IMG/VR virus record: IMGVR_UViG_3300029044_000314 | Span: 88,108-152,107 of that record | DNA length: 64,000 nt | Strand: one strand, 5' to 3' | DNA from: a virus | Shown: piece by piece, positions 47,481-62,041 of the stretch | Layout: each line of letters begins with the position of its first letter | Numbering within the stretch: the stretch's first letter is position 1 | Notes under the pieces: model-generated | The model's database searches: none | Told to the model about the DNA's origin: nothing | Seen by the model: only the letters and a program-made list of their open reading frames with translations | Program-made: the position numbers and the translations under genes

Positions 47481-47503
47481 TATACTGGAATTGTTCACAC
47501 AGG
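47481..47503 (+). promoter_or_regulatory. conserved 23-bp promoter-like motif
   Basis: tatactggaattgttcacacagg, 28 nt upstream of the ATG at 47531. Confidence 0.55.
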
Positions 47504-47530
47504 AAAAGTCGAAAAACCAAGGAGCAAAAA

Positions 47531-48355
47531 ATGAGCAACATCGACAGCATCATCGAACGCATCAACAACCTCATGGCAATAGCCGAAAACGAAGCATCCA
47601 GCGACAATGAGGCGCAAATGGCGTTCGAGCGGGCACAGAAACTCATTAACGAATATCGTATCGAAGACTGGAAACGCGACCGCACCCGCATGAACAAGCC
47701 AATCATCGAACGTGGCGTGAACGTAAGCAAAACCACCATCTACCATCAGCAAGGCTACCTTGCGACCATCATCGCCCAAGCTAACGAATGCCGCGCCTAC
47801 CTTCACGAAAGCCGGTGTGGCGGAAGGATTGAGGAACGTGCCGTCATGTTCGTAGGCGAGGAGGACGATGTGAACGCCGCAGTCCTTCTCTTCCAAAGCA
47901 TCGACCTATACTGCTCAGTCCACGCCCGCACTAGCTACGCGGACATGATTGACCAGCACGCCAAAGCGTACTATGAGGACAACAAGGAATACGTCGAAAC
48001 GCATTACGGACGTGAATCCTATCCGACGCTGACGGAATGCAAACAGTACATGCGTCGTGATTATCCACGCGCCAAGTTCTACTATGGTTATCGCGGTGGA
48101 TTCAACGAACGTTTGAGCGAACGTTTCGAGGAGCTTCGCAAGCAGAGTCTCGCCATTCCTTCCGGTCGTGAGCTGGTGTCATGCAAGAGTCAGCGTCTGA
48201 ACGAGTATTTTGACAAGCTTGAGCTGGTGTCGGGTCGTGCTACCACTGCTCGTGGTAGCAAGGATGGTTTTGCCCGTGGTGTGAGTGACGCGAACAATGT
48301 GGGTTTGGGTTTGTCTGAAATGGGTGTTTCGTCCCACGCTTTGCTGAATGCCTGA
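47531..48355 (+). CDS. DUF2786-like protein
   Basis: N-terminus MSNIDSIIERINNLMAIAENEASSDNEAQMAFERAQKLINEY fits the DUF2786 N-terminal signature common on plasmids and phages. Confidence 0.45.
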   Translation: MSNIDSIIERINNLMAIAENEASSDNEAQMAFERAQKLINEYRIEDWKRDRTRMNKPIIERGVNVSKTTIYHQQGYLATIIAQANECRAYLHESRCGGRIEERAVMFVGEEDDVNAAVLLFQSIDLYCSVHARTSYADMIDQHAKAYYEDNKEYVETHYGRESYPTLTECKQYMRRDYPRAKFYYGYRGGFNERLSERFEELRKQSLAIPSGRELVSCKSQRLNEYFDKLELVSGRATTARGSKDGFARGVSDANNVGLGLSEMGVSSHALLNA

Positions 48356-48360
48356 CTTTT

Positions 48361-48403
48361 CAGCCCGCTTCCTTGTTTTGGGGAGTGGGCTGTTTTTGTT
48401 TTT
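48361..48403 (+). terminator. putative intrinsic terminator
   Basis: cagcccgc...gggctg hairpin followed by tttttgttttt. Confidence 0.45.
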
Positions 48404-48416
48404 CCACCAGATATAG

Positions 48417-48439
48417 TATACTGGGATTGTTCACACAAA
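48417..48439 (+). promoter_or_regulatory. conserved 23-bp promoter-like motif
   Basis: tatactgggattgttcacacaaa. Confidence 0.55.
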
Positions 48440-48465
48440 AACTTGGTCTACAAAAGGAGCAACCC

Positions 48466-48843
48466 ATGAACACCTACTACGCCGCCATAGTCAACCACCC
48501 CAACCAGAAGCTCGACCCCGACAACAACATTCCACTAATCCAGATTTTCCACAGCGCCACCGAACGCAATAACTGGGTGAAAGCTTACGCCGATAATCCC
48601 CACGTGAAGACCATCGACTCGAAACAGGCGATTCGTTGGCTCCGCTTCACCTACCGCCAGTATCGAAACCAGAAGATTCCCTCCCGCATGAGCAGAGACG
48701 GCGTGGTCACGAAGTTCCTCCGCACCTGCTCGTTCCAACCCCTACTCCACACGAAGAGAATCAGCCTTACGCCGGAAGAGGTCATCAAGCATCTCTCCGA
48801 CCCCGAAGACCATGTGCTGAGGAAAATCGGATACACTCGCTGA
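48466..48843 (+). CDS. hypothetical protein
   Basis: 125 aa after RBS aaaaggagc. Confidence 0.45.
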   Translation: MNTYYAAIVNHPNQKLDPDNNIPLIQIFHSATERNNWVKAYADNPHVKTIDSKQAIRWLRFTYRQYRNQKIPSRMSRDGVVTKFLRTCSFQPLLHTKRISLTPEEVIKHLSDPEDHVLRKIGYTR

Positions 48844-48854
48844 AAGGACAAAAA

Positions 48855-49268
48855 ATGAGTGAAACTATCGAAGACGCCAAGACCGAACCCCGTCCGACTT
48901 GGACGAAGCTAAAGGACGGTTGGAAAGTCCGAATCCCGAAAGAGTGGTGGGACAATTGGAGCGAGGCTGGTGAAACCGACGAGTTCCCGGTATTCAAAGC
49001 CAATGGCGAGGTGTCTCACGTGAACATCGTCAAGGTCAGCAAGCCGTTCGTGTTGGACGGTGTGGAATACGTCATAGGCACGCCAAGGAAGGAAACCTAC
49101 CGTCGTGGGTCTGCCCTCTCCCGCACTTCCAATACCGCTCGTAAGCGCAGTGGCATTCGTTGTGAGGAGTGCGGCTCCACCAAGGGCGTGCATCTGACAA
49201 GGGACATTAACGGCATCGGTTGCCTGTTATGCTCTCTTTGCGATGATGGTTCCGCGAGCGTCTGCTGA
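48855..49268 (+). CDS. hypothetical protein with C-terminal Cys-cluster (Zn-ribbon-like)
   Basis: 137 aa; CEECGS...CLLCSLCDDGS. Confidence 0.45.
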   Translation: MSETIEDAKTEPRPTWTKLKDGWKVRIPKEWWDNWSEAGETDEFPVFKANGEVSHVNIVKVSKPFVLDGVEYVIGTPRKETYRRGSALSRTSNTARKRSGIRCEECGSTKGVHLTRDINGIGCLLCSLCDDGSASVC

Positions 49269-49345: not shown

Positions 49346-49368
49346 TATACTGGAATTGTTCACACAAA
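49346..49368 (+). promoter_or_regulatory. conserved 23-bp promoter-like motif
   Basis: tatactggaattgttcacacaaa (consensus copy). Confidence 0.55.
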
Positions 49369-49390
49369 CAGGAAACCAAAAGGAGAAAAA

Positions 49391-49591
49391 ATGCATATCA
49401 AGGATGTTCTGCTCATGACGCTTGCCACCATCGCTTTCGGTGGGATGGCAACCGCAATCGTGTTCGGCATCTACTCGTTCGGCACTTGGCTGTTCACGTT
49501 TGACCGCACGTTCGGCGTCGTGTCGGTCTGCGCCCTCATAGTCGCGTTGCTGGTCGTCGCGGTCAAGATTCGATTGAGCATGAATCGATAG
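49391..49591 (+). CDS. small membrane protein
   Basis: 66 aa, two TM helices, RBS aaaaggagaaaaa. Confidence 0.45.
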   Translation: MHIKDVLLMTLATIAFGGMATAIVFGIYSFGTWLFTFDRTFGVVSVCALIVALLVVAVKIRLSMNR

Positions 49592-49605
49592 TTTTGGTTT
49601 GTGGC

Positions 49606-49640
49606 CCCGTCGTTTTGGCGGGGCTTTTTGTGTGGACGTG
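49606..49640 (+). terminator. intrinsic terminator
   Basis: gccccg-tcgttttgg-cggggc followed by tttttgt. Confidence 0.65.
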
Positions 49641-49669
49641 TCTTGTTTTGTATATTTATCCAAACGTGC

Positions 49670-49692
49670 TATACTGGAAATGTCCACATAAA
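49670..49692 (+). promoter_or_regulatory. conserved 23-bp promoter-like motif (variant)
   Basis: tatactggaaatgtccacataaa. Confidence 0.5.
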
Positions 49693-49719
49693 ACAGGCGG
49701 AGCCAACCAAGGAGAACAA

Positions 49720-50028
49720 ATGAACGACACCAAAACCTACTACCAGCCAATCTTCCACGACAACGGCACCATCAGCGTAGTCGCCGGAGACAACACCTAC
49801 GACCACACCTACGCGGACAAGCCCATGAACGAAGCTATCGTGGAAACCTCCCACCACAAGCCCAATCCAATCAACTGGAAGCACGTCGTATCCAACTGCG
49901 ACGAACGTTGGAACCTCATCAAAGGCAACGTGTGCTTGGCTGTCCTGAGTGGCAATTGGGACGTTTTCGAGAACCGTCACGAAAACAGAATCATGCTCGT
50001 CACCCGCAAGGGAACCCGAATCCTCTGA
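49720..50028 (+). CDS. hypothetical protein
   Basis: 102 aa after RBS ccaaggagaacaa. Confidence 0.45.
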   Translation: MNDTKTYYQPIFHDNGTISVVAGDNTYDHTYADKPMNEAIVETSHHKPNPINWKHVVSNCDERWNLIKGNVCLAVLSGNWDVFENRHENRIMLVTRKGTRIL

Positions 50029-50038
50029 CCCACACCAA

Positions 50039-50073
50039 GATTGGAATTGGAAGACTGCCGTATTACTCCTTCC
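50039..50073 (+). repeat. copy 2 of the conserved ~35-bp motif
   Basis: gattggaattggaagactgccgtattactccttcc. Confidence 0.5.
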
Positions 50074-50116
50074 TTCTACTTCTCTCATATTTGGCAAAAA
50101 AGAAAGGAAGAATTAC

Positions 50117-50848
50117 ATGAAAGAACGGAACATCTCACTGGAAAACGACCTCATGATGTTAGGTCAGGAACCGATGGACGAACCCGACTCGTCCACCACC
50201 ATCGAACTGCAAGAAATCGTGAAGAAGACGGAACGAAAGATGTTGAACCCACCGGCACCACCATTGAAATTCGAACCGAAAACAGCGGACAAGTCCACCG
50301 AAAACACCGACGAAACCGCCAGCAAGACGAGCAAGAAAACCGCCCCGACAGAAAACAAAACCAATCCGAAACCCATTCCGAAAGCCTATAAGCCCGCCAC
50401 ACGCAAAACCAACAAAACCGCACCTCCAACACCAACCCCCACCAACCCATACGCGCCCGTCGAATACGACTGCAACGGCAAATGGCGTCAACTGTTGACG
50501 GGAATCGCCGTCGGCGGAATTCTCGTGGCGGCAATCGCATTGTTGGTGGGAGCCAAAACATGTTGGCGGTTCATCGCCATAGGCGCATTGACCGCATTCG
50601 CCATGCTCCCGCTCTACGGCTGGTTCGACGAACTCGAACGGGACATGGCGGTCAAGGCAGTCGAAAAGGATTACGGGATTCGTGTTCTGCAAACAAACGG
50701 AGGTAATGGACTCGCGGAAGTGCATTACATGTTCCAACAAAATCCAACCGTCGAAGCCGGTATGGTCTCCTATGGTCATGGCTTGGCATGGTTGCGGAGC
50801 GTGGGCGGCAAGAAGATTGTCGGACGAAGGCAGCAGGTGAAAAAATGA
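50117..50848 (+). CDS. membrane protein with P/T/K-rich linker
   Basis: 243 aa; low-complexity KTAPTENKTNPKPIPKAYKPATRKTNKTAPPTPTPTNP, then 2 TM helices. Confidence 0.45.
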   Translation: MKERNISLENDLMMLGQEPMDEPDSSTTIELQEIVKKTERKMLNPPAPPLKFEPKTADKSTENTDETASKTSKKTAPTENKTNPKPIPKAYKPATRKTNKTAPPTPTPTNPYAPVEYDCNGKWRQLLTGIAVGGILVAAIALLVGAKTCWRFIAIGALTAFAMLPLYGWFDELERDMAVKAVEKDYGIRVLQTNGGNGLAEVHYMFQQNPTVEAGMVSYGHGLAWLRSVGGKKIVGRRQQVKK

Positions 50849-51222
50849 TACCCAGCACGGTCAAGGACGCACGTTTTCCCTCGTTCTTTTTCAACGGCGT
50901 TTGGCAAGGGCTTAAAACCGCCCTCATGCCGCACGCTTGCATATTCGACCCGTTGCCTCCCATGCCGACCGTACGCGATTGGCTTCAGGCCCATGGAGGC
51001 ACCGGCATGGATGCTGACGCATTCGACCGGTGCGAGAGCGAATGGTACGAGCTGCTGGAGCTGCGCAAACGGCAGATGAACGTGTTTTTGGCTGGCTTGT
51101 TCGTGGGCACGCTGGTGTATGCGATTGCGGCGCTTGCATTACTGGCGCTTGTTGGCTGGCTGGTGTATTCGCTGGTTCCGTTTGACGGTTTCGGACGTTT
51201 TGTCGATTGGGTTCGTGGTTGA
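50845..51222 (+). CDS. membrane protein
   Basis: 125 aa, ATGA-coupled to the upstream gene; C-terminal TM helices. Confidence 0.4.
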   Translation: MIPSTVKDARFPSFFFNGVWQGLKTALMPHACIFDPLPPMPTVRDWLQAHGGTGMDADAFDRCESEWYELLELRKRQMNVFLAGLFVGTLVYAIAALALLALVGWLVYSLVPFDGFGRFVDWVRG

Positions 51223-51241
51223 GCATTTCTCTATTCTGTAC

Positions 51242-51264
51242 TATACTGGAACTGTTCACGCAAA
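51242..51264 (+). promoter_or_regulatory. conserved 23-bp promoter-like motif (variant)
   Basis: tatactggaactgttcacgcaaa. Confidence 0.5.
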
Positions 51265-51292
51265 AGAGTCGTTCTCGCACACAGGAGAAAAA

Positions 51293-51757
51293 ATGCATAA
51301 CACCTACAAGGAAACCCTCACAGTCTGGCCTGTCAACGACGCAACCGGACTGCACCTCTTCAGCACTCCGGAAGCCGCCGAAACATACGCAGACGAACAT
51401 CAAGGCGACATGTTGGAGCCAATGCCCGTCATGTCAGCCCGAACCGTCTGGCATTGCGTGGGATTGAGGTTCATTGGTCGAACCTTCGACTGGAACACCT
51501 ACACCGTCGAGGAACTCGGATACTCCACAAAGGAACGTCCGGCCACCGCCACTCGTCCTTCCGTTCGGGCCATTCCTCTAAATGGCGAGGACTTCGTGTT
51601 GGAAGTGTGCGCCGAAACCGAAGAAAAAACTCACGAATTGGCCGCGTTTCTTGGTGATTCGGTGGTTCGTTGGGTTGCTAAGGAGGGGAAGCAGAAGCCA
51701 TCCTTAAGCCATCGTCTTGAGCTTGCCTTAAAGAATTACGTTGAGGGTCGTGTCTGA
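51293..51757 (+). CDS. hypothetical protein
   Basis: 154 aa after RBS acaggagaaaaa. Confidence 0.45.
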   Translation: MHNTYKETLTVWPVNDATGLHLFSTPEAAETYADEHQGDMLEPMPVMSARTVWHCVGLRFIGRTFDWNTYTVEELGYSTKERPATATRPSVRAIPLNGEDFVLEVCAETEEKTHELAAFLGDSVVRWVAKEGKQKPSLSHRLELALKNYVEGRV

Positions 51758-51782
51758 TTTCCTTTTCTCCGCATTTTTGTGC

Positions 51783-51805
51783 TATACTGGAATTGTTCAC
51801 ACAAA
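51783..51805 (+). promoter_or_regulatory. conserved 23-bp promoter-like motif
   Basis: tatactggaattgttcacacaaa. Confidence 0.55.
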
Positions 51806-51827
51806 CAGGAAACCAAAAGGAACGAAA

Positions 51828-52757
51828 ATGAGCGACAACATCAACTGGAACGAAACCTCAATCTACGACTTCCTCCGCTTCGAACACAAACCAGAACGCC
51901 AAGCGGCATACGATGACCGGAGCCTCACCAAACTCGCCAACGCCGGACTGATACAACGCAACGAAGAAAAACACACGTGGAAGCTCACCCAAAAAGGCGA
52001 AAAGGAACTAGCCGACATCAGGCAGCATTTCGACTCCGGCAAACTCTCCGAACTCCCGCTCACGCTCCGACACTACTACTTCGACTGGGGCGAATACGAC
52101 ATTCACAACCTGCCGGTCAACGCACTTTCCCAAGTGGCCCTGCGGGACAGGAGCGCGGAGATTCGCCGGAAAGCCGTGGAACTGCTCGACAAGTACGACA
52201 AGCTTGACAAGGAAACATCGAACGCCCTATCCCACGACAAGGATTGGGAGGTTCGTTATATCGCGGCGAAGAAAGCCGACGTCTGCAACTTCTTCAACGA
52301 GGAGGATGAGCGCGTGGTCAAAAACGTCATCAGCAATCATGACGTCGATAAGGAGTGCTTGTCCCACTGGCTGGAAAGCCCTTACGGCGAGATTCGCGTC
52401 CAAGTGGCCCTCTTGTCCGATGACAGCGAGGTGGACGAAGTGTTCGAACGACTCGAACCGCAAGACGTGGCCAGTGTGCTGGGCGCTAAACCTCGGTGGG
52501 CGACCCGTGAAATCGTTATGAAAGCGTGGGAGGCGGCCGACGGGTGGGAGCGTTGCAGGCTGGCTCGGAATATGAGAGACATGCCGGATTCGTTCATCAA
52601 TCAGGCGTTTAAGGGCGAAGCTCGATGGACTCTACGTGAGCGTATGGAGGATTATCGCAAGGCGGTTCGCCAAGTGTTGGAGTTGGGTGCGATGTTCTCT
52701 GAGGACAGTGAAATTCGCCGGAAGATTTGGGAGCGTGCCGAGCGTGAGATTGGCTGA
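51828..52757 (+). CDS. HEAT-like repeat protein, paralog 1
   Basis: 309 aa; repeats of the RDRSAEIRRKAVELL / DWEVRYIAAKKA type; paralogous to 54894..55859. Confidence 0.5.
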   Translation: MSDNINWNETSIYDFLRFEHKPERQAAYDDRSLTKLANAGLIQRNEEKHTWKLTQKGEKELADIRQHFDSGKLSELPLTLRHYYFDWGEYDIHNLPVNALSQVALRDRSAEIRRKAVELLDKYDKLDKETSNALSHDKDWEVRYIAAKKADVCNFFNEEDERVVKNVISNHDVDKECLSHWLESPYGEIRVQVALLSDDSEVDEVFERLEPQDVASVLGAKPRWATREIVMKAWEAADGWERCRLARNMRDMPDSFINQAFKGEARWTLRERMEDYRKAVRQVLELGAMFSEDSEIRRKIWERAEREIG

Positions 52758-53067: not shown

Positions 53068-53154
53068 TGGGGAAAAATTCCCAAGTCGTGTGGATGCTTT
53101 TGCATTTGCGCGGCTTTTTGTTTTTTGCGCTTTTGCGCTTTCTTTCAAATATAA

Positions 53155-53177
53155 TATACTGGAATTGTTCACACAAA
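53155..53177 (+). promoter_or_regulatory. conserved 23-bp promoter-like motif, orphaned by IS insertion
   Basis: tatactggaattgttcacacaaa followed within ~10 nt by the IS end instead of an RBS/ATG. Confidence 0.5.
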
Positions 53178-53184: not shown

Positions 53185-54610
53185 GAAAGAGCCAAATTGA
53201 CATCCTCCCCCGCATTCATGCGGGGGATTCCCGAATCTTACGGTTCGGGTTTCTGTTCGCTACGACAAAACAAGAAAGGAGGGGACGCTAATGCGAGACC
53301 TTGGTTCCGGTTCTGCCGTCCTTGCAGACGCTGACCGCAAGCCCTGCGGCGAGGATGTTTTCGGCTGCGTTCAAATCCCTGTCATGGGTTGTTCCGCAGT
53401 CCGGGCACGTCCATGCCTTGACTTTGAGGCCGGGCATGCCCTTCGGCCCGGTCTTCGCCCCGCAGTGGGAGCAGGTTTGTGTGCTCGGATAATACCTGTC
53501 GATGGTTATGAGCTGTCGCCCGTACCATTCGGCCTTGTATTCGAGCATTCGACGGAACTCCGACCATCCGGCGTCCATGATGCTCCTGTTCAGCCCGTTT
53601 TTCGCGGACTGGCCGTTGGGGAGCCAATGGTTCGGATTATCCGGGTCGGGTTTCGGCGCGCATCTTTTGGCCATGTTCTTCACGTTGAGGTCTTCGATGA
53701 CCACCGTTTGGTTCTCGCGGATTATCCTCGTGCTCAACTTGTGGAGGAAGTCACGGCGCATGTCCGTGATTCTGGCGTAGGTGCGGGCCACCTTGAGGGC
53801 GGCTTTCCGACGATTGTTGCTGCCTTTGGCTTTGCGGGACAACGCCTGTTGCTCCCGTTCGAGCCGTTGGGCGAGTTTCTTGTAGTGGCGTGGATTCGCT
53901 ATGGTCTCCCCGTCGCTGGTGACGGCGTAGCTGTCCACTCCCAAGTCGATTCCGACGGCGTTCCTTCGGGTGGGGAGAAGGCGGATGGTCTCCTCCACGA
54001 GGATGCTGACATGCCATCGTCCGGCGGCGTCCAAGCTTACGGTCACGGTGCTCGGCTCCGTCTTGCGGGGCAGTGTTCTGGACCATCGTATCGGCAATGG
54101 TTCGCGCATCTTGGCGAGCGTGAGTTCGTTGCGCTTGGCATCCCATTTGAACGCGCTTCGAGTGTATTCGGCGCTTCCGCCGTGGGATTTGGCCTTGAAT
54201 CTCGGATAGTCGCCGGTCTGCTTGAAGAAGTTGGAGAACGCCGTCTGCAAGTGTCTCAACGCCTGTTGCAGCGGCACACAGGACACTTCGTTCATGTACG
54301 AGTATTCGGCCGTTTTCTTCCATTGGGTGAGCATGGCGCTGGTCTGGACGTAGGTGATGCTCTTGCGCTCCGCCGTCCATGCGGTGGAGCGGGCTTCCAA
54401 CGCGAGATTGTAGACCTTTCGGCAGCAGCCGACCGTGCGCCTGAGCAGTTGTTCCTGCTCGGGCGTCGGATAGAAGCGGAACCTGTACGCCCGCTTGCAT
54501 GCATGCCTTCTGACCATGTTTCACATTATATCATATCAATCTGTGAAAGGAGGACGGTTTGCTTCCTCCCCGCCCTAAAGGACAGGGTCTCCGCAAACCA
54601 AAAAAAAGAT
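53185..54610 (-). mobile_element. IS200/IS605-family TnpB-only insertion sequence (IS1341-like)
   Basis: tnpB plus structured ends: hairpins ctcccccgcattcatgcggggg and cccgaa...ttcggg 3' of tnpB; ggagga...tcctcc and ccct...aggg 5' of tnpB; no tnpA; exact boundaries uncertain. Confidence 0.55.
53288..54517 (-). CDS. tnpB: TnpB (OrfB_IS605) RNA-guided endonuclease-type transposase accessory protein
   Basis: 409 aa; RuvC-like core (GIDLGVDSYAVT, VVIEDLNVKNM) and C-terminal Zn-finger CSHCG...CPDCG. Confidence 0.85.
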   Translation of the reverse strand: MVRRHACKRAYRFRFYPTPEQEQLLRRTVGCCRKVYNLALEARSTAWTAERKSITYVQTSAMLTQWKKTAEYSYMNEVSCVPLQQALRHLQTAFSNFFKQTGDYPRFKAKSHGGSAEYTRSAFKWDAKRNELTLAKMREPLPIRWSRTLPRKTEPSTVTVSLDAAGRWHVSILVEETIRLLPTRRNAVGIDLGVDSYAVTSDGETIANPRHYKKLAQRLEREQQALSRKAKGSNNRRKAALKVARTYARITDMRRDFLHKLSTRIIRENQTVVIEDLNVKNMAKRCAPKPDPDNPNHWLPNGQSAKNGLNRSIMDAGWSEFRRMLEYKAEWYGRQLITIDRYYPSTQTCSHCGAKTGPKGMPGLKVKAWTCPDCGTTHDRDLNAAENILAAGLAVSVCKDGRTGTKVSH

Positions 54611-54849: not shown

Positions 54850-54872
54850 TATACTGGAATCGTTCACACAAG
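54850..54872 (+). promoter_or_regulatory. conserved 23-bp promoter-like motif
   Basis: tatactggaatcgttcacacaag. Confidence 0.5.
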
Positions 54873-55859: not shown

Positions 55860-55882
55860 GGTTTGATGGGGGGGGGAGGCGG

Positions 55883-55915
55883 GATGCTGTTTTGGTGTCC
55901 CGCTTTTGTTTTTTG
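55883..55915 (+). terminator. putative intrinsic terminator
   Basis: gcggga...tcccgc hairpin followed by ttttgtttttt. Confidence 0.5.
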
Positions 55916-55942: not shown

Positions 55943-55965
55943 TATAGTGGAATTGTTCACACAAA
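55943..55965 (+). promoter_or_regulatory. conserved 23-bp promoter-like motif
   Basis: tatagtggaattgttcacacaaa. Confidence 0.5.
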
Positions 55966-56253: not shown

Positions 56254-56299
56254 AAAACAATCACCACAAACCCCAATTACACGAAAAAGGACAATCAGA

Positions 56300-56662
56300 A
56301 TGTACTCGAAAATCAGCGAAGACACCTATCGGAAACTCATCGACAAACTCGTCAGAATCCCCTACGTGACCGGCGCTCACGCAACCCGAGCCATCTTCGG
56401 AGACGGAATCGAAGTCGCATTCCAACACCGTTACATGGGCAAGCAGGTCGAGTACTATCTGGTGGCCGACTCGCAACGAGACGGCAGACGTTCCTACCGT
56501 TGGCGTGGCGGAGTATACACGGTTCCGTCCGCACACTGGACTTTCGATGACGGGGAATACACGCCCGTCGAACTGGAAGAACATAAGCTGGAATCGTTGG
56601 ATGTTGACGGACTGTATGACGCGATTGTGTCCGATTTAGACAAGGCCATGAGAGAATTGTAG
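56300..56662 (+). CDS. hypothetical protein
   Basis: 120-aa ORF. Confidence 0.4.
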   Translation: MYSKISEDTYRKLIDKLVRIPYVTGAHATRAIFGDGIEVAFQHRYMGKQVEYYLVADSQRDGRRSYRWRGGVYTVPSAHWTFDDGEYTPVELEEHKLESLDVDGLYDAIVSDLDKAMREL

Positions 56663-56672
56663 GAAAACGAAA

Positions 56673-57047
56673 ATGCGATTCACCGACGGCAAGGAAAAGC
56701 TGGAAATCGAAATCCACGAAGGCCAGCATTCTTGGGATACAACGGTAGAATTCTTCGACCATTTGACGACTCCCATTCTGAATGGGACTCGTCAGGCCGG
56801 AAACGTTCGCACTCTACTGACGAACGTGTACAACAGGATTCTAGGCATGTCCGACTATCCCGCACCGGAAGCCGACACTCGGGCAATCTACACCATCACC
56901 GACTTGACTGGAACCATTGTCAGGGAAGGTTCTTTCACTTCGTCCGACAATCCAGCCAACATGTATTGCAGCGGTTGCGGTTGCCTTCTCAGCGAGGAGA
57001 ACGAGAACCTTTGCGGCGATACCGGCTGGTGTGATAACTGCTATTGA
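56673..57047 (+). CDS. hypothetical protein with C-terminal CxxC...CxxC
   Basis: 124 aa; YCSGCGC...CGDTGWCDNC. Confidence 0.4.
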   Translation: MRFTDGKEKLEIEIHEGQHSWDTTVEFFDHLTTPILNGTRQAGNVRTLLTNVYNRILGMSDYPAPEADTRAIYTITDLTGTIVREGSFTSSDNPANMYCSGCGCLLSEENENLCGDTGWCDNCY

Positions 57048-57121: not shown

Positions 57122-57144
57122 ATATACTGGAATTGTTCACACAG
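57122..57144 (+). promoter_or_regulatory. conserved 23-bp promoter-like motif
   Basis: tatactggaattgttcacacagt. Confidence 0.55.
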
Positions 57145-57174
57145 TAAGAAGTTGAATCCCAACAAGGAGAAAAA

Positions 57175-57429
57175 ATGAGCAACACCACCAAAGAAATCGA
57201 CTGGCACAACACCCTCCCCCAAAACTTGGAAGGCCACAAGTGCATCGCAGTCACCAAAACCGGCGAAACCATCGAAGGCATACTGGAATATCGCACGGCA
57301 CAACCCGACATGTACGTGAGAATCGATAGCCTCCACCTCCCCGGCGTCAAACCATGGGTTATTGTCAACCAATGCGAATCCGGCAACGAAATGGGCGAAG
57401 AATTCCAGTCCGTGAAAGTGTTCGCCTGA
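57175..57429 (+). CDS. hypothetical protein
   Basis: 84 aa after RBS acaaggagaaaaa. Confidence 0.45.
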   Translation: MSNTTKEIDWHNTLPQNLEGHKCIAVTKTGETIEGILEYRTAQPDMYVRIDSLHLPGVKPWVIVNQCESGNEMGEEFQSVKVFA

Positions 57430-57440
57430 AAGGTTCACGA

Positions 57441-57605
57441 ATGAGTAACCACGACTGGGTAGCAACCGACAGTCCCAATAAAAACAACACTCACAAGAAC
57501 AACCGTTCCACTCATAACGGATGGGACGCCGGTAGCGCTTGGAACCCGCAATCCAAGGAACGAAACGAATTCGGCATACGCAATACCGACTGGAGCAACG
57601 ACTAG
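57441..57605 (+). CDS. small hypothetical protein
   Basis: 54 aa, N/W-rich; weak support. Confidence 0.25.
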   Translation: MSNHDWVATDSPNKNNTHKNNRSTHNGWDAGSAWNPQSKERNEFGIRNTDWSND

Positions 57606-57642
57606 CCCCCACGTCAAAAAACGTTAGACCAAAAGGAGAAAA

Positions 57643-57972
57643 ATGGACAGCGGCTACTATGAGTATCTGACCAACTCAGCCAAAAACGACCCTGAACTGA
57701 ACGAGCACGACAAAGAGACCGTACTGGCGTTTCTGAAACGACTCGACGCCAACCCCGACAAGTATGCGGTAGCCCCAAGAACAATCGCATACTTGAATGA
57801 AGAATCTTTGGAATACGCTGACATTACAACCGAAACCCTTAAGAAGCTCGACATGAGCGCTACGCAACTGTTGGACGAATGGTGGGAAAACGTTTGGGGT
57901 AGCGCTACTATTGAGGACGATTGCCTTGAGGGACTAAACGAAGTTCTAGAACTTCACGGAGCCAGTGAATGA
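57643..57972 (+). CDS. acidic hypothetical protein
   Basis: 109 aa after RBS aaaaggagaaaa. Confidence 0.45.
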   Translation: MDSGYYEYLTNSAKNDPELNEHDKETVLAFLKRLDANPDKYAVAPRTIAYLNEESLEYADITTETLKKLDMSATQLLDEWWENVWGSATIEDDCLEGLNEVLELHGASE

Positions 57973-58023
57973 TACCAGAATGCCCGTGGAAAACGACTTC
58001 CACGGGTATTCTCGTCTCAATTT

Positions 58024-58254
58024 TTGGAAGGAGCGCGAATGCCCCATTACTTGTTGGACGCGGCTAATGACGCGACTGAACTCCCATCCGCAGACTTGGA
58101 TAACATCCAGTCGGTTCTGCGTACCATGCCTACTCTTGATTCGGAAGCGCCCGTGTTGGCTTGTGAGATTTTGGATGCTTGGGACGAGGATTGTAGGATT
58201 CTTCGCCGCCGTCCGAGGCTGGTGTTGTTGAATGTTGAAGAGCCTGAATTCTGA
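58024..58254 (+). CDS. hypothetical protein
   Basis: 76 aa after RBS ggaaggagcg. Confidence 0.35.
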   Translation: MEGARMPHYLLDAANDATELPSADLDNIQSVLRTMPTLDSEAPVLACEILDAWDEDCRILRRRPRLVLLNVEEPEF

Positions 58255-58299: not shown

Positions 58300-58323
58300 T
58301 AGAGTGAGATAGTTCACACCAAA
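58300..58323 (+). promoter_or_regulatory. degenerate copy of the 23-bp motif
   Basis: ttagagtgagatagttcacaccaa, upstream of 58336. Confidence 0.3.
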
Positions 58324-58335: not shown

Positions 58336-58581
58336 ATGACCTTAAAAGAACTCCCCTACCAAGACGGAATTAACTGGAAGGAACTCGAAGGCAAGCCCGC
58401 AATTTTCAACTGGAACGGCAAACCCATGGCCGGAACCCTCTACTTGGACGGTTTCAGCAATCTCGCCGTTCGAGAACTGTCCGGCTATATGCCGGTTTTA
58501 TATGTTTGGCCGGATGATACGACTCATGTCAATGTCAAGTGTGTGACGGATTTTCATGTGTTCGAGTTCGTTGAGGATTAG
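58336..58581 (+). CDS. hypothetical protein
   Basis: 81 aa after RBS aagaaggaaaacc. Confidence 0.4.
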   Translation: MTLKELPYQDGINWKELEGKPAIFNWNGKPMAGTLYLDGFSNLAVRELSGYMPVLYVWPDDTTHVNVKCVTDFHVFEFVED

Positions 58582-59044: not shown

Positions 59045-59067
59045 TATAGTGGGATTGTTCACAAAGA
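59045..59067 (+). promoter_or_regulatory. conserved 23-bp promoter-like motif (variant)
   Basis: tatagtgggattgttcacaaaga. Confidence 0.45.
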
Positions 59068-59093
59068 CAAAGACAACCAAAAAGGAGAACGCA

Positions 59094-59465
59094 TTGAATC
59101 AATCAACTGGCATCGGCAAACGAATCCTCTTCGATGACCACCCAACTCGCGCAGTATTCGACACCAAGGAACTGCCAACAGACGACTCCTATGCGCTCTA
59201 CCGCGTATACCTGCGTTCTTGGCAACGGCATTCCTGCCGACCGGGAACCGAGGATACTCCCATGTTCGACGTGATATGCCCTGCAAGATGGTGCCGTTGG
59301 ATTGCTCACGTCAGCATTCTGAACTATTTGGACGACATAAGCTGGTTGGCTTGGCCGGTGGAAGGTGGTGTCAGTTGGCAGCATAGGACAATCGACCCTT
59401 ATTCCGTCCACTATTCCACCGATACCCATATTCCGGTAATCGACTTGCGCGAAAGCGAAGAATAG
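59094..59465 (+). CDS. hypothetical protein (TTG start)
   Basis: RBS aaaaaggagaacg then TTG; 123 aa. Confidence 0.3.
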   Translation: MNQSTGIGKRILFDDHPTRAVFDTKELPTDDSYALYRVYLRSWQRHSCRPGTEDTPMFDVICPARWCRWIAHVSILNYLDDISWLAWPVEGGVSWQHRTIDPYSVHYSTDTHIPVIDLRESEE

Positions 59466-59473
59466 GAGAGAAC

Positions 59474-59869
59474 ATGTTCGACACTCAGAACACGCCTCGA
59501 TTCTCGACCATAGGCGTCACCTACACGAAGCATCAGAACAATGCGGCGCTTAGCATGAGTTCCGCCGAAGATTCGACCATGCGCCAACTGGGATTCACCG
59601 ACCACCGTGAGGGGTATTGGTACCTCTGCCGTTCAGTCTCCCCCGACCATGACATGACATTAAATGTCGAGATTGCCAAGGCCGGTAGCGACTGGCAGAT
59701 AGACGTGTTGGACGAGAACTTCTGCCAACCCTACGACTACCAGTATTTACTCAACGTGAACCCGACGTTGGATTATCCCAACAAGGTGGCTGACGAATGC
59801 GAGAAATGGTTCCGGAAACTATCCGAATGGGGTTTGCTGCACGGCTGGCATGAGGGAATGTACGTCTGA
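59474..59869 (+). CDS. hypothetical protein
   Basis: 131-aa ORF. Confidence 0.4.
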   Translation: MFDTQNTPRFSTIGVTYTKHQNNAALSMSSAEDSTMRQLGFTDHREGYWYLCRSVSPDHDMTLNVEIAKAGSDWQIDVLDENFCQPYDYQYLLNVNPTLDYPNKVADECEKWFRKLSEWGLLHGWHEGMYV

Positions 59870-59895
59870 AAAAACAGAAAGGAAAAACAAAAAAA

Positions 59896-60165
59896 ATGAG
59901 CATTCTCAACGAGGAACTGGAAGAACGGTATCCCATCGAGGAAGGCGATTGCATCACGCTCACACGGGAGCAGTTGTCGTTGCAGTTGCGTCGCGCATAC
60001 AAGGCGGGTGCGACCCGCGACTATAAGCGCACTCCGCACGGGCATACGGAACTGTTGAAGATTATCGGAACCCTTCAAGACTCCCACCTATTGCCTGATG
60101 GCACGGACTTCGAGGATGTCGTGAGAACAGTTCTGGACGGTCGCGTCAAGGCCATCACCAAATAG
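59896..60165 (+). CDS. hypothetical protein
   Basis: 89-aa ORF. Confidence 0.4.
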   Translation: MSILNEELEERYPIEEGDCITLTREQLSLQLRRAYKAGATRDYKRTPHGHTELLKIIGTLQDSHLLPDGTDFEDVVRTVLDGRVKAITK

Positions 60166-60169
60166 GCGT

Positions 60170-60192
60170 TATACTAGAAACGTCCACACATT
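60170..60192 (+). promoter_or_regulatory. conserved 23-bp promoter-like motif (variant)
   Basis: tatactagaaacgtccacacatt. Confidence 0.45.
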
Positions 60193-60215
60193 CACTTATC
60201 CAAGGAGACCACACC

Positions 60216-60800
60216 ATGAGCTGGGACAGATACCAAAGTCGAGACCCCAGAAGAATCGACCCAATGAAAACACCACTCTACGATTACGTGGTCTTGGATA
60301 CCGAAACCACCGGCTTCAAACCCGAAAACGGGGCTAAACTCATCGAAATCGGAGCCGTGAAAATCCACGGGGGAAAACTCGTAGACCGATACGAGCAACT
60401 TATTGACCCGCACCAGCATATCCCCGAACACATCACCTCCCTCACCGGAATCAACGACAGTATGGTCATCGGACAACCCGACGTAAGCCAAGCCATCATC
60501 CGATTCGACAAGTGGCTTGGCCCGCGAACCATCATTATGGCGCATAACGCGTCATTCGATTTAAGTTTCTTGGACGCGGCCATGAAAACCGTGAACGGTG
60601 GAATGTTCTTCTTTCCACACCGGTTTGTGGACACGTTGGAAATGAGTCGGAAAATCCATCCCGAAAAGCCAAGCCATAAGGTTGCCGTGCTTATCCGCGA
60701 CTATGGTATCGGTGACGTGGAAGAGCATCGCGCCTTGTCCGACGCGACTCAGGAAAACATGCTGTATGAAGCCATGCGCAGAGAGGAGTTTGGGTGCTAA
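60216..60800 (+). CDS. DnaQ-like (DEDDh) 3'-5' exonuclease
   Basis: Exo I VVLDTETTG, Exo II MAHNASFDLSFL, Exo III HRALSDA. Confidence 0.75.
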   Translation: MSWDRYQSRDPRRIDPMKTPLYDYVVLDTETTGFKPENGAKLIEIGAVKIHGGKLVDRYEQLIDPHQHIPEHITSLTGINDSMVIGQPDVSQAIIRFDKWLGPRTIIMAHNASFDLSFLDAAMKTVNGGMFFFPHRFVDTLEMSRKIHPEKPSHKVAVLIRDYGIGDVEEHRALSDATQENMLYEAMRREEFGC

Positions 60801-61058
60801 ATGGGATATGAGGACATGTTCAATCCCGAATGCAGGGACTATCTGAAATCACGCAAACCGTCGCAACGGGAGCAGGAGATAGCGAAGCTTGAGAAACAGG
60901 CCGACAAGAAGCATGACATGTATGGCAACAAAACCCTCTACGAAGTCTCAGGAGAGGTTGCGGCCATCTACGAAAGCCAGAAGGCGTTGCGCTTGAGGTT
61001 GGAAAGCATCGAGGAAAAACTGGACGAACTCTTAAGGACTCAGAAAGGACTGGGGTGA
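60801..61058 (+). CDS. hypothetical coiled-coil protein
   Basis: 85 aa, immediately follows the exonuclease gene. Confidence 0.4.
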   Translation: MGYEDMFNPECRDYLKSRKPSQREQEIAKLEKQADKKHDMYGNKTLYEVSGEVAAIYESQKALRLRLESIEEKLDELLRTQKGLG

Positions 61059-61624
61059 GAAACCTTCTTACATGCCCATGCTGTAACAGCATTCCCGAAT
61101 TTAAGTATCGGGCTAAATCTGAACTCCACTGCACTTGGGACGACGAGCAATATTTTCTGCCGAAAGGTTGGGGATACTCCCACTTTTGTCCAGTGGATAA
61201 TGGTTTGCAAACATCTGGCGGAGTCGGCTTCCAAACCTTGCACGACGCACAGCGCGACTGGAACTGTAAGGTTGGAAGTTTTCTCCGTAACCCGCTGAAC
61301 AGTTTCCACTCGTCCATCGAGACCGGTGCGGAACTGCTGACCGAATTAGATGATTGTTTCGTTGGGCAGCGAATTCAGCTTGGCGACCGGATATTATTGA
61401 GTCGGCGTTCTCTAACCGTTCGAGGTATCGTGCAGTTCATCCAACGGGACAGTGTTGGCGAAATCAGCGTCATCCTGCGGGATACGGACACCATCAAGTA
61501 TGTGATTTATTCGCCGGTCTGGGAGCGTCGGAAGTACATGTTCTCGTATTATATCGAAAGGCGAATGCATTGGATAAAAAAGCCGAAAGGCTCCTCTGCG
61601 ACGCGTACCATCGTGGACGCTTAG
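61055..61624 (+). CDS. hypothetical protein with N-terminal CPCC...C cluster
   Basis: 189 aa, ATGA-coupled to the previous gene; preferred over the overlapping alternative frame 61354..61713. Confidence 0.35.
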   Translation: MRNLLTCPCCNSIPEFKYRAKSELHCTWDDEQYFLPKGWGYSHFCPVDNGLQTSGGVGFQTLHDAQRDWNCKVGSFLRNPLNSFHSSIETGAELLTELDDCFVGQRIQLGDRILLSRRSLTVRGIVQFIQRDSVGEISVILRDTDTIKYVIYSPVWERRKYMFSYYIERRMHWIKKPKGSSATRTIVDA

Positions 61625-61724
61625 CGGAGATTGACGAAAACAATCAGGAAGCGGCTATGTTCCTTATGTGGAACAGTGGGCACAATATTGTGCTCGCTGT
61701 TTTTCTTTTTTAGGAGGAGCCGGA

Positions 61725-61985
61725 ATGTCCCAGCATAGCGACAAAAGCCACAAGAACAAGAAGGTCGTGGTCATTGAGAAGGTGCGGGACAAGTATGGTT
61801 CCGTCATCGCTTTGAAGGTTGTATTGTATCGTCGGCATGATAGTGAGAATGGGAAGGTTTGGGATATGAAGCGTTCTCATACGTTCAGTGCGGCTTTCAG
61901 TCGTCGTGCTTGTAGGGAACAGGCGAAGACGTTGGCTCGTCAGTGGGCCGATAAGTATGGTGCGAAGGTTGTGAAGAGGGGGTAG
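61725..61985 (+). CDS. basic hypothetical protein
   Basis: 86 aa after RBS taggaggagc. Confidence 0.4.
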   Translation: MSQHSDKSHKNKKVVVIEKVRDKYGSVIALKVVLYRRHDSENGKVWDMKRSHTFSAAFSRRACREQAKTLARQWADKYGAKVVKRG

Positions 61986-62018
61986 TTGCCCTCTTTAATG
62001 GTTTATGTTATACTGGGG

Positions 62019-62041
62019 GTGTTCACATAAAAAACCATTCC
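62019..62041 (+). promoter_or_regulatory. conserved 23-bp promoter-like motif (variant)
   Basis: tatactgggggtgttcacataaa. Confidence 0.45.

What the first reader, a model, noticed from the sequence alone, without database searches (positions are those of the whole stretch)
47481..62041. At least 18 copies of a 23-bp motif TATACTGGAATTGTTCACACAAA placed 20-30 nt upstream of small genes, always in the direction of transcription
Plus-orientation copies are at 47481, 48417, 49346, 49670, 51242, 51783, 53155, 54850, 55943, 57122, 59045, 60170 and 62019, with a degenerate one at 58300. Reverse-orientation copies at 502, 821, 3376 and 3844 precede the minus-strand small genes at the left edge. Each is followed by an A-rich leader (…caggaaaccaaaaggagaaaaaATG). 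The motif begins with a -10-like TATACT, but conservation extends about 17 nt further (GGAATTGTTCACACA). That is more than a sigma-70 promoter needs, which suggests a shared operator, an alternative-sigma/phage-type promoter, or a conserved 5' leader RNA. This implies coordinated control of dozens of small accessory genes on the element.
Basis: seen in the sequence. Interest (0 to 1): 0.7.

Follow-up and report, generated by a model that had tools for sequence, protein, structure and literature searches.

The report
Shared promoter box of Bifidobacterium megaplasmids
The repeated 23-bp motif is real: it is a divergent version of a promoter box already published for the Bifidobacterium megaplasmid pMP7017 family, it heads about twenty small-gene cassettes in this window, and what reads its conserved part beyond the -10 hexamer is still unknown.

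Summary
There are 19 clear copies of TATAsTGGAAyTGTTCACAyAAA, against 0 expected by chance, plus one degenerate copy before parA. All are intergenic, all point toward a gene, and each sits 36-52 nt (one 70) before an RBS-led start codon.

The window is a deep-branching, metagenome-only relative of the conjugative Bifidobacterium megaplasmids (pMP7017 family; core proteins 35-60% identical, syntenic).

Dineen et al. 2024 (PMC10832533) already described the same element in pMP7017. It is a 34-bp motif overlapping the -10 (TATACTGAATATGTCCACATAAAA), with 19 copies driving about 24% of the coding capacity. They called it a presumed plasmid regulon and a "likely transcription factor binding site". 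The window's version keeps the same register and matches 18 of 23 positions.

What I add:
- Each plasmid lineage has its own consensus, and this holds at positionally orthologous copies.
- The motif is the only conserved block in otherwise diverged orthologous intergenic regions.
- Cassette gains, losses and rearrangements among relatives have their junctions at the motif, as with T4 PeSL cassettes.
- The leaders are A-rich and unstructured, so a structured RNA is unlikely.
- No sigma factor or RNA polymerase gene was found.

The reading as a host sigma-A extended -10 promoter is solid. The function of the -6..+11 box is not resolved; an operator is my best guess.

The parts
47481..47503 (+). 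Motif copy TATACTGGAATTGTTCACACAGG. Heads the DUF2786/DUF7168 gene 47531-48355. Positional orthologue of pMP7017 copy 28290(-).
48417..48439 (+). Motif copy heading genes 48466-48843 and 48855-49268. A strong terminator hairpin (48361-48392) lies just upstream.
49346..49368 (+). Motif copy heading the 66-aa gene 49391-49591. Its motif plus leader (49346-49393) is nearly identical to 51783-51830. This pair is the junction of a 2.4-kb block that is absent or moved in relatives.
49670..49692 (+). Motif copy TATACTGGAAATGTCCACATAAA heading 49720-50028. It looks chimeric: the 5' half is window-type and the 3' half is pMP7017-type. Terminator 49603-49625 lies upstream.
51242..51264 (+). Motif copy heading gene 51293-51757.
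51783..51805 (+). Motif copy heading the HEAT-repeat gene 51828-52757. Orthologue of pMP7017 copy 79185(+). It is the most frequent homology breakpoint (n=14).
53155..53177 (+). Motif copy whose 102-aa gene (intact in relative L131) is disrupted here by an IS200/605-type TnpB element. Terminator 53083-53116 lies upstream.
54850..54872 (+). Motif copy heading the HEAT-repeat gene 54894-55859.
55943..55965 (+). Motif copy (TATAGT -10) heading genes 55993-57047. Terminator 55875-55907 lies upstream.
57123..57145 (+). Motif copy heading genes 57175-58254.
58300..58322 (+). Degenerate copy TAGAGTGAGATAGTTCACACCAA heading 58336-58581.
59045..59067 (+). Motif copy TATAGTGGGATTGTTCACAAAGA heading genes 59094-60165.
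60170..60192 (+). Motif copy TATACTAGAAACGTCCACACATT heading the RNase T-type 3'-5' exonuclease gene 60216-60800. Orthologue of pMP7017 copy 81979 and CP084013 copy 107159.
62009..62031 (+). Motif copy TATACTGGGGGTGTTCACATAAA. It is followed by an RBS and a 25-codon ORF (62058-62135), then gene 62158-62784. Terminator-like hairpin 61972-61997 lies upstream.
502..524 (-). Motif copy (TACAGT -10) heading gene 216-479(-).
821..843 (-). Motif copy heading gene 544-801(-).
3375..3397 (-). Degenerate copy TATAGTGGAACCAGTCACAAACA heading gene 3028-3360(-). Orthologue of pMP7017 copy 36118(-).
3844..3866 (-). Motif copy heading gene 3443-3814(-). Orthologue of pMP7017 copy 35196(-) and CP084013 copy 5251(+).
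26765..26787 (-). It heads genes 26541-26717(-) and 26090-26470(-). Orthologue of pMP7017 copy 56070(-).
9731..9753 (-). Degenerate copy CACCATGATTCCGTCCACACCGG before parA (9045-9707(-)). The parA promoters of pMP7017 and CP084013 carry recognisable copies at the same place.

Best explanation
The motif is this plasmid lineage's version of the pMP7017-family promoter box.

Positions 1-6 (TATAsT), usually preceded by TGn, form an extended -10 promoter read by the host sigma-A RNA polymerase. The -35 contributes only a weak TTG. Transcription should start at the conserved G at motif position 13. That gives a 25-40 nt, A-rich, unstructured leader that ends in an AGGAG ribosome-binding site.

Each copy, often just after the terminator of the previous unit, makes the following one to four small genes an insulated expression cassette.

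The extra conserved segment (positions 7-23, about -6 to +11: GGAAyTGTTCACAyAAA) most likely acts as an asymmetric operator for a plasmid-encoded DNA-binding protein. By sitting over the start site, that protein would gate all of these promoters together. This would be one plasmid-wide regulon of accessory, establishment and anti-restriction-type genes, and the operator sequence has drifted together with its reader in each plasmid lineage.

As a by-product, the 23-48 bp of identity shared by all cassette heads serves as the crossover point where cassettes are lost, gained and reshuffled between related plasmids.

Status of each step:
- Shown here: copy number, placement, orientation, orthology, lineage-specific consensus, junction association.
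- Shown by others in pMP7017: transcripts start at these sites.
- Inferred: the exact +1, the operator function, and the existence and identity of the regulator.
For: Motif statistics and placement.

Published homologue: the motif overlaps the mapped -10 of highly transcribed pMP7017 genes and has 19 copies driving 56 genes (PMC10832533).

Same element in relatives: a scan with the same regex finds 23 copies in pMP7017 and 14 in B. longum plasmid CP084013, all upstream of an RBS. A PWM scan finds more copies with off-consensus -10 hexamers.

Window belongs to this family: it is syntenic with pMP7017 over roughly 35-60 kb, with proteins 35-60% identical. The VirB4-like ATPase is 59% identical to those of all six sequenced Bifidobacterium megaplasmids.

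Promoter anatomy:
- TGn occurs before the -10 in 27 of 33 lineage-A copies and 57-62 of 92 lineage-B copies.
- The -35 shows only a TTG bias.
- G at position 13 occurs in 86/92, 32/33 and 6/6 copies of lineages B, A and C.

Terminator hairpins lie within 60 nt upstream of about half of the plus-strand copies.

Selection on the box: in orthologous intergenic regions of plasmids this diverged, the motif is the only contiguous conserved block.

Lineage-specific states:
- Position 15/20 is C/T in 32 of 33 lineage-A copies.
- It is T/C in 59 of 92 distinct lineage-B cassettes (position 15 is T in 76 of 92).
- It is C/C in 6 of 6 lineage-C copies.
- Position 8 is A in lineage A and G in 90 of 92 lineage-B copies.
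The same differences are seen at positionally orthologous copies.

Junctions: homology breakpoints between the window and its metagenome relatives cluster at the motif (18 of 64 clusters against 6.9% expected, p = 2e-7, and the most frequent clusters are among them). A 5-gene block is deleted or relocated in 8 relatives, with the junction inside the shared motif plus leader.
Against: - No regulator was identified.
- The box is not palindromic, and its weak TGT..ACA symmetry shifts register between lineages.
- At least six motif promoters are highly transcribed in pMP7017 during ordinary growth, so any repressor is not silencing them fully.
- A lineage-specific consensus can also arise by recombination or gene conversion among copies, without any co-evolving protein. 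Recombination at the motif demonstrably happens.
- Relative to intergenic DNA only, the breakpoint enrichment is modest (15 of 34 against 28% expected).
- The transcription start has not been mapped at nucleotide resolution in any lineage. The published data are RNA-seq coverage, not 5'-end mapping.
Confidence: 0.45

Rival explanations
1. It is a constitutive expression cassette with no dedicated regulator. The conserved -6..+11 segment works in cis, either as discriminator plus initial transcribed sequence (open-complex stability, promoter escape) or as the unstructured 5' end of the mRNA (stability, ribosome recruitment).
For: - Motif genes are among the most highly transcribed in pMP7017 under ordinary growth.
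- The parts invariant across all three lineages are TATACTG and the predicted +1..+10 GTyCACAyAA. The discriminator (positions 8-12) is the variable part.
- Leaders are A-rich and unstructured, with a tightly constrained distance to the start codon.
- The box is asymmetric, as expected for something read by RNA polymerase or as RNA.
Against: - The published paper states that the motif is absent from bifidobacterial chromosomes. That is odd if it were simply the best host promoter or leader.
- This model gives no direct reason for coordinated lineage-specific changes at positions 15 and 20.
Confidence: 0.3
2. Only the -10 is functional. The rest of the motif persists because cassettes spread and are homogenised by recombination at the shared sequence (concerted evolution, as with T4 PeSLs), or because it is the site of a cassette-specific recombinase.
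For: - Cassette indels and rearrangements have junctions at the motif.
- Some copies share identical motif plus leader over 48 nt.
- Copy 49670 looks chimeric.
- 92 distinct cassettes carry the box in lineage B.
Against: - The same blocks (TATACTG, GT, CACA, AA) stay invariant between lineages whose core proteins are only 35-60% identical, and at positionally orthologous copies. That points to purifying selection rather than recent copying.
- No recombinase is associated with the cassettes.
- The motif has no hairpin or inverted-repeat architecture of the kind seen at attC-type sites.
Confidence: 0.15
3. The box is bound by a plasmid maintenance protein that doubles as a global regulator. Candidates are the replication initiator (the box resembles the window's iterons) or the small ParG/omega-like partner of ParA, by analogy with KorB of RK2 or omega of pSM19035.
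For: - The three perfect 21-bp repeats at 7152-7215, next to the rep gene and close to parA and the ParG-like gene, read TTTGGTGGGAAAAGTCCACAC. They match motif positions 7-20 at 11 of 14 and rank 2nd, 7th and 8th among all non-promoter PWM hits of the window.
- parA itself is headed by a motif copy in all three lineages.
- The ParA partner has the sequence pattern of a ribbon-helix-helix protein. The only database support is a weak Antitox_RHH hit in the CP084013 orthologue (E = 0.12).
- RepA of pMP7017 is dispensable for replication, yet it binds DNA repeats cooperatively and is highly conserved (PMC8313286).
Against: - In pMP7017, neither the RepA repeats (yTTAGAATTyTGACACC) nor the RepB iterons (ACACCGATAGGCCACTA) score well with the lineage-A motif matrix.
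- RepB's critical bases GGnCnAnnR are not in the motif.
- The iteron hit in the window scores no better than other, presumably chance, hits (15.0, 13.1, 13.0).
- The window's promoters mostly have GTTCAC, while the repeats have GTCCAC.
- No tandem repeats were found near par in pMP7017.
- No solved-structure relative was found for the ParA partner.
Confidence: 0.07
4. The motif is the promoter of a plasmid-encoded alternative sigma factor or phage-type RNA polymerase, or it encodes a structured leader RNA or riboswitch.
For: - The length (23 bp) and strict orientation resemble T7-class promoters.
- The elements carry phage-like genes, and both lineages are listed in IMG/VR as viral contigs.
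Against: - No sigma factor or RNA polymerase gene appears in the Pfam scans of the window or in the annotations of pMP7017 and CP084013.
- TGn + TATACT placed 7 nt before a conserved purine is a standard sigma-70-family architecture.
- The leaders have no structure above shuffled controls (mean z = -0.15).
- No Rfam family matches.
Confidence: 0.03

Closest known systems
The conserved 34-bp promoter motif of megaplasmid pMP7017 (Dineen et al. 2024, Microb Biotechnol, PMC10832533)
   Same: - Same plasmid family: syntenic, with core proteins 35-60% identical.
- Same register and 18 of 23 identical consensus positions (TATACTGAATATGTCCACATAAA against TATACTGGAATTGTTCACACAAA).
- Same placement less than 60 nt before start codons, and a similar copy number.
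- At least 6 positionally orthologous copies (DUF2786 gene, exonuclease, parA and others).
   Different: - The window's lineage has its own consensus: G8, A10, T11, T15, C20.
- It is a deeper branch, known only from human-gut metagenome and IMG/VR contigs of 100-224 kb.
- It has lower G+C (52.8% against 57.4%).
- The upstream AWAYATGY part is reduced to TGn.
PeSL (promoter-early stem-loop) cassettes of T4-type phages (Arbiol et al. 2010, PMC2839356; Comeau et al. 2014, PMC4122927)
   Same: - Composite terminator plus conserved promoter placed between many small genes of unknown function.
- The repeated motif is the point of exchange between otherwise unrelated sequences, generating indels and replacements.
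   Different: - Different sequence, different host (Actinomycetota) and a conjugative plasmid rather than a lytic phage.
- Here the conservation extends past the start site.
- Only about half of the copies have a recognisable upstream terminator.
Operators and stoperators of cluster A mycobacteriophages (L5 gp71 type; Mavrich & Hatfull 2019, PMC6550527; PMC9283540)
   Same: - 20-30 asymmetric sites per genome, in an actinobacterial mobile element.
- All sites are oriented with transcription.
- The consensus differs between related genomes. In the phages this tracks repressor divergence.
   Different: - Most stoperators are not in promoters and act by blocking elongation. Every copy here includes a -10 and sits at a gene head.
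- No cognate repressor is known here.
Global plasmid regulons with repeated operators in promoters (RK2 KorA/KorB, pSM19035 omega, R388 ArdK/StbA); stated from general knowledge
   Same: One plasmid-encoded protein binds a short sequence repeated in many promoters and so coordinates maintenance, establishment and transfer genes. parA is a member of the set here.
   Different: - Those operators are palindromes or arrays of short repeats. This is a single asymmetric box fused to the -10.
- The regulator has not been identified.
Leading-region anti-defence islands of conjugative plasmids (Samuel et al. 2024, PMC11541004)
   Same: - Runs of co-oriented small genes.
- In the pMP7017 family the motif-headed genes include ssb, orphan methyltransferases, a Lar-type protein and DUF2786 proteins.
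   Different: - Those islands use long hairpin-forming single-strand promoters (Frpo/ssi). This motif has no hairpin.
- Neither the origin of transfer nor the leading end is known for this plasmid family.

Membership tests
pMP7017-family 34-bp promoter motif (Dineen et al. 2024) | The motif contains a TATACT -10 hexamer followed by a conserved ~18-nt stretch in a fixed register. | tested here: met
   The consensus matches at 18 of 23 positions in the same register. TATACTG, G13-T14, CACA and AA are invariant in both.
pMP7017-family 34-bp promoter motif (Dineen et al. 2024) | The motif lies within about 60 bp upstream of translation starts, co-oriented, in many copies per plasmid. | tested here: met
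   19 of 19 copies are co-oriented. 18 lie 36-52 nt before a start codon and one lies 70 nt before.
pMP7017-family 34-bp promoter motif (Dineen et al. 2024) | The motif is carried by a pMP7017-related megaplasmid and precedes comparable genes. | tested here: met
   There is synteny and 35-60% protein identity to pMP7017 and CP084013. Orthologous copies precede the DUF2786 gene, the exonuclease gene, parA and at least three small genes.
pMP7017-family 34-bp promoter motif (Dineen et al. 2024) | Transcripts start just downstream of the motif. | not testable with these tools
   This is known only from RNA-seq of pMP7017 in B. breve. No expression data exist for the window's lineage.
Sigma-70-family extended -10 promoter | A -10 hexamer close to TATAAT, with A2 and T6, preceded by TGn. 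| tested here: met
   TATAcT matches at 5 of 6. TG occurs at -3/-2 in 57-62 of 92 lineage-B copies and 27-28 of 33 lineage-A copies.
Sigma-70-family extended -10 promoter | A -35 hexamer TTGACA at a 16-18 bp spacing. | tested here: inconclusive
   There is only a TTG bias. The mean best match is 2.8-3.1 of 6, against 2.3-2.4 at random positions. This is compatible with an extended -10 promoter that needs little from the -35.
T4-type PeSL mobile regulatory cassettes | A composite terminator stem-loop plus conserved promoter between small variable genes. | tested here: inconclusive
   Terminator-like hairpins lie within 60 nt upstream of about 7 of the 14 plus-strand copies. The others have none detectable.
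T4-type PeSL mobile regulatory cassettes | The motif is the junction of indels and replacements between related genomes. | tested here: met
   18 of 64 breakpoint clusters fall at the motif against 6.9% expected. Explicit junctions are seen in L142 and L166. This is an analogy only: the sequence and the host differ, so the element is not a member of this family.
Cluster A mycobacteriophage stoperators | Asymmetric sites, oriented with transcription, with a genome-specific consensus. | tested here: met
Cluster A mycobacteriophage stoperators | [quoted passage not shown] | tested here: not met
   Every copy carries the -10 and sits at a gene head. Neither half of the motif occurs on its own above expectation. 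Binding could not be tested.
T7-class single-subunit RNA polymerase promoter, or promoter of an element-encoded sigma factor | The element encodes the cognate polymerase or sigma factor. | tested here: not met
   None was found in the window ORFs scanned or in the annotated pMP7017 and CP084013 records. The rest of this plasmid, outside the 64-kb window, was not seen.
Structured cis-regulatory RNA (Rfam families) | A match to a curated covariance model, or a stable conserved fold. | tested here: not met
   There were 0 Rfam matches at gathering threshold over the whole window. Leader minimum free energies are no lower than those of shuffled sequences (mean z = -0.15).

The most novel reading that the evidence does not exclude
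The start-site box is the operator of a plasmid-encoded, lineage-specific regulator, an immunity-like specificity system for megaplasmids. All cassette promoters would fire together when the plasmid enters a cell that lacks the regulator (an establishment regulon containing ssb, anti-restriction and similar genes). The same box would double as the recombination scaffold through which related plasmids trade accessory cassettes. In effect this would be a plasmid counterpart of phage stoperators and PeSLs combined.
Probability: 0.25. Interest if true: 0.55.

Novelty: new member of a known kind. Interest (0 to 1): 0.32.

Why it matters
These megaplasmids are reported in about 10% of the gut microbiome samples surveyed in the published study, mostly from infants and mothers (PMC10832533), and they are the only known conjugative plasmids of Bifidobacterium.

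A single short box that controls roughly a quarter of their genes is useful in two ways. It is a handle for finding their master regulator, and it is a ready-made, portable promoter and leader for bifidobacterial genetics.

The lineage-specific variants and the motif-bounded cassette shuffling shown here suggest how the accessory gene load of these plasmids is assembled, and they give clear experiments to run. The element itself is already in the literature, so this is consolidation rather than discovery.

Tried and rejected
1. Phage origin. Megablast of 47-62.5 kb against 50,697 phage records gave no match.

2. Degenerate motif scan of genome contigs. With only 15 specified bases the pattern was too loose. 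Only the Bifidobacterium callitrichidarum and B. stellenboschense loci carried RBS-linked copies.

3. Large ORFs as a hidden RNA polymerase. The 886-aa ORF is the VirB4-like conjugation ATPase, and the 1343-aa ORF is a conserved conjugation-region protein.

4. Palindromic operator. pMP7017's TATGTCCACATA has 5-bp inverted arms, but in the window only TGT..ACA survives in the same register, and the best symmetry shifts by one base. I rejected this as a conserved feature after inspecting the consensus sequences.

5. Rep or iteron binding. This is suggestive in the window but is not reproduced in pMP7017 or CP084013.

6. Half-sites acting independently. Neither half occurs outside full copies above expectation. 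The exceptions are explained by codon usage, plus the iterons and the parA site.

7. Candidate regulators searched for next to motif copies in 1.18 Mb of lineage-B loci. The Xre-type gene that lies divergent from pMP7017 copy 106704 has no orthologue there. An ImmR-like/ImmA pair is conserved (locus L183) but is not linked to a copy.

8. Structure of the ParG-like protein. The profile search against solved structures was uninformative.

9. Per-gene expression values for pMP7017 motif genes are not in the supplement that is held.

Full report
**1. Observation**

The 23-mer occurs 11 times with up to 3 mismatches, against 0.00 expected. Its core, TATANTGGNANNGTNCAC, occurs 19 times with up to 2 mismatches, against 0.65 expected, and none of 100 shuffles reached that number.

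One copy was missed, at 26765-26787(-). A degenerate twentieth copy precedes parA at 9731-9753(-).

I made a simple codon-usage gene call for the window, which gave 78 genes. Against it, every copy is intergenic and co-oriented with the next gene. The first motif base lies 36-52 nt before the start codon, except for 70 nt at copy 26787. An AGGAG-type ribosome-binding site lies in between.

**2. What the window is**

No phage record matches. Against plasmids, only an IS element is nearly identical, at 97%, to Bifidobacterium longum megaplasmids.

At the protein level the window is syntenic with roughly 35-60 kb of pMP7017 (B. breve) and with B. longum plasmid CP084013. Identities are 35-60%. 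The conserved genes include parA, a RepA_C-family rep gene, a dnaB helicase, a class C sortase and pilin genes, and the conjugation ATPase. That ATPase is 59% identical to those of all six sequenced Bifidobacterium megaplasmids, and nothing closer exists in PLSDB.

The exact window-type motif occurs on human-gut metagenome contigs of up to 224 kb and on IMG/VR contigs of up to 217 kb. The window therefore comes from a sister lineage of the pMP7017 family that is so far known only from metagenomes. Its G+C content is 52.8%, against 57.4% for the sequenced plasmids.

**3. The motif is already described**

Dineen et al. 2024 (PMC10832533) mapped pMP7017 transcription by RNA-seq. [quoted passage not shown]

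They first saw it at six highly expressed genes, then at 13 more sites. Together these are predicted to drive 56 genes, about 24% of the coding capacity. [quoted passage not shown] They also reported that it is present before comparable genes in pMP7017 homologues and absent from bifidobacterial chromosomes. No regulator was named.

My own scan finds 23 copies in pMP7017 and 14 in CP084013 with a strict pattern. A PWM scan adds several more with off-consensus -10 hexamers, including the copies before ssb and parA.

The window consensus aligns to the pMP7017 consensus in the same register, with 18 of 23 positions identical.

**4. Anatomy**

Information content is confined to about -3 to +24 relative to the first T of the motif.

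| Element | Finding |
|---|---|
| -10 hexamer | TATAcT |
| TGn before the -10 | 27-28 of 33 lineage-A copies; 57-62 of 92 distinct lineage-B cassettes |
| -35 | Only a TTG bias |
| Position 13 (7 nt after the hexamer) | Conserved G in 86/92, 32/33 and 6/6 copies; the expected +1 for a sigma-70-family promoter (inference from general promoter geometry) |
| Predicted 5' untranslated region | 25-40 nt, about 47% A, no structure beyond shuffled controls (mean z = -0.15) |
| Rfam families | None in the window |
| Upstream terminators | Strong hairpins immediately before about half of the plus-strand copies |

The genes that follow are mostly small and of unknown function. The exceptions are a DUF2786/DUF7168 protein, two HEAT-repeat proteins and an RNase T-type exonuclease.

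**5. New comparative points**

*(a) Positional orthology.* Copies precede orthologous genes in the window, pMP7017 and CP084013: the DUF2786 gene, the exonuclease gene, parA, a HEAT-repeat gene and three small genes. In alignments of these intergenic regions the motif is the only contiguous conserved block. This argues for purifying selection on the whole box, not only on the -10.

*(b) Lineage-specific consensus*.

| Lineage | Source | Consensus after TATACT |
|---|---|---|
| A | pMP7017 and B. longum plasmids | GAATATGTCCACAT |
| B | Window and its metagenome relatives; 92 distinct cassettes | GGAATTGTTCACAC |
| C | B. callitrichidarum and B. stellenboschense loci | GTAAnnGTCCACAC |

Invariant everywhere are TATACTG, G13-T14, CACA and AA. 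The variable positions are 8-12, 15 and 20.

*(c) Mosaic junctions.* Endpoints of homology between the window and 44 related metagenome loci pile up at the motif.
- 18 of 64 endpoint clusters fall there, against 6.9% expected (p = 2e-7).
- The most frequent clusters fall exactly at the first motif base or at about +23 to +47.
- Within intergenic DNA alone the enrichment is modest (15 of 34 against 28% expected).
- In eight relatives the 2.4-kb, five-gene block 49394-51782 is missing or placed elsewhere. The junction lies inside the 48 nt that copies 49346 and 51783 share.
- Other relatives join the upstream flank of one copy to the gene of another, for example L166.
- Copy 49670 has a B-type 5' half and an A-type 3' half.

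**6. Mechanism**

The promoter function is well supported by the architecture, the placement and the published RNA-seq of the homologue.

The role of the -6..+11 box is not settled. I rank the possibilities as follows.

| Reading | Probability |
|---|---|
| Operator for a plasmid-encoded regulator | about 0.4-0.45 |
| Cis-acting start-site or leader element | about 0.3 |
| Recombination-maintained relic | about 0.15 |
| Operator read by a Rep or ParG-like maintenance protein | about 0.07 |
| Alternative sigma factor, phage-type polymerase or structured RNA | about 0.03 |

The operator reading rests on three points: the box is plasmid-restricted (as published), it is conserved across deep divergence, and it differs between lineages. 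The third point can also be produced by recombination among copies, which clearly occurs.

Against a strong repressor, several motif genes are highly expressed in steady state in pMP7017.

I looked for candidate readers.
- The three 21-bp repeats next to the rep gene (7152-7215) match box positions 7-20 at 11 of 14 and rank near the top of non-promoter PWM hits. However, pMP7017's experimentally defined RepA repeats and RepB iterons (PMC8313286) do not resemble the lineage-A box. I treat the resemblance in the window as unexplained and possibly due to chance.
- parA is headed by a motif copy in all lineages, and its small partner looks like a ribbon-helix-helix protein. That makes a KorB/omega-type scheme conceivable, but it is untested.
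- An ImmR-like/ImmA pair is conserved in lineages A and B, but it is not linked to any motif copy.

**7. Comparison with known systems and verdict**

The element is a member of the published pMP7017 motif family, as a new lineage variant.

It works like three other known systems without belonging to any of them:
- It works like T4 PeSL cassettes in providing insulated promoters that double as exchange points (PMC2839356, PMC4122927).
- It resembles cluster A mycobacteriophage stoperators in number, asymmetry, orientation and genome-specific consensus (PMC6550527). It fails their defining feature of being mostly outside promoters.
- It resembles plasmid global regulons such as KorA/KorB.

The finding is real and biologically meaningful but already known in kind. 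Interest is moderate to low (0.32). The open question, namely what reads the box, is directly testable.

Noticed in passing
window 7152-7215 (with 7000-7110 and the rep gene 7366-8307(-)): Three perfect tandem 21-mers, TTTGGTGGGAAAAGTCCACAC, lie beside an AT-rich stretch that contains ACCTTTTGTA three times. They are 3' of a RepA_C-family rep gene and near parA and a ParG-like gene. This is probably the replication origin (iterons) or a centromere. The repeat matches promoter-motif positions 7-20 at 11 of 14.
   Followed up: partly
window about 53201-54607 (tnpB 53288-54517, minus strand): An IS200/605-type TnpB element, 96-97% identical to copies on B. longum megaplasmids, has replaced the 5' part of the 102-aa gene driven by motif copy 53155. 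The gene is intact in metagenome relative L131. This is the only part of the window with a near-identical match in sequenced plasmids, which suggests recent IS exchange with B. longum plasmids.
   Followed up: yes
window 9731-9753(-) and about 9815-9840(-): The region upstream of parA holds a degenerate motif copy (CACCATGATTCCGTCCACAC). About 90 nt further upstream lies a second partial copy, TTTTACTGGAATGTTTCTCC. The parA promoters of pMP7017 and CP084013 also carry the motif.
   Followed up: partly
loci L209-L369 (IMG/VR): Both the window-type and the pMP7017-type motif occur many times on IMG/VR contigs of 100-217 kb. These conjugative megaplasmids are therefore catalogued there as viral genomes.
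   Followed up: no
window 32821-34515, 34651-35712 and 35555-40942: A Gram-positive pilus and adhesin cluster. It comprises a SpaA/Cna-B pilin, a class C sortase orthologue, and a 1795-aa surface protein with RCC1 repeats and SdrD B-like domains. This surface protein differs from the corresponding proteins annotated in pMP7017 (InlB B-repeat proteins).
   Followed up: no
window 49670-49692: This motif copy looks like a recombinant between lineage types. TATACTGGAA is window-type, and it is followed by ATGTCCACATAAAA, which is pMP7017-type.
   Followed up: partly
L016, L083, L092, L118 (B. callitrichidarum TRI 5 contigs) and L122 (B. stellenboschense): A third motif variant, TATACTGTAAnnGTCCACACAAA, precedes RBS-led genes in primate-derived Bifidobacterium species. 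The plasmid family and its promoter box therefore extend beyond human-associated species.
   Followed up: partly
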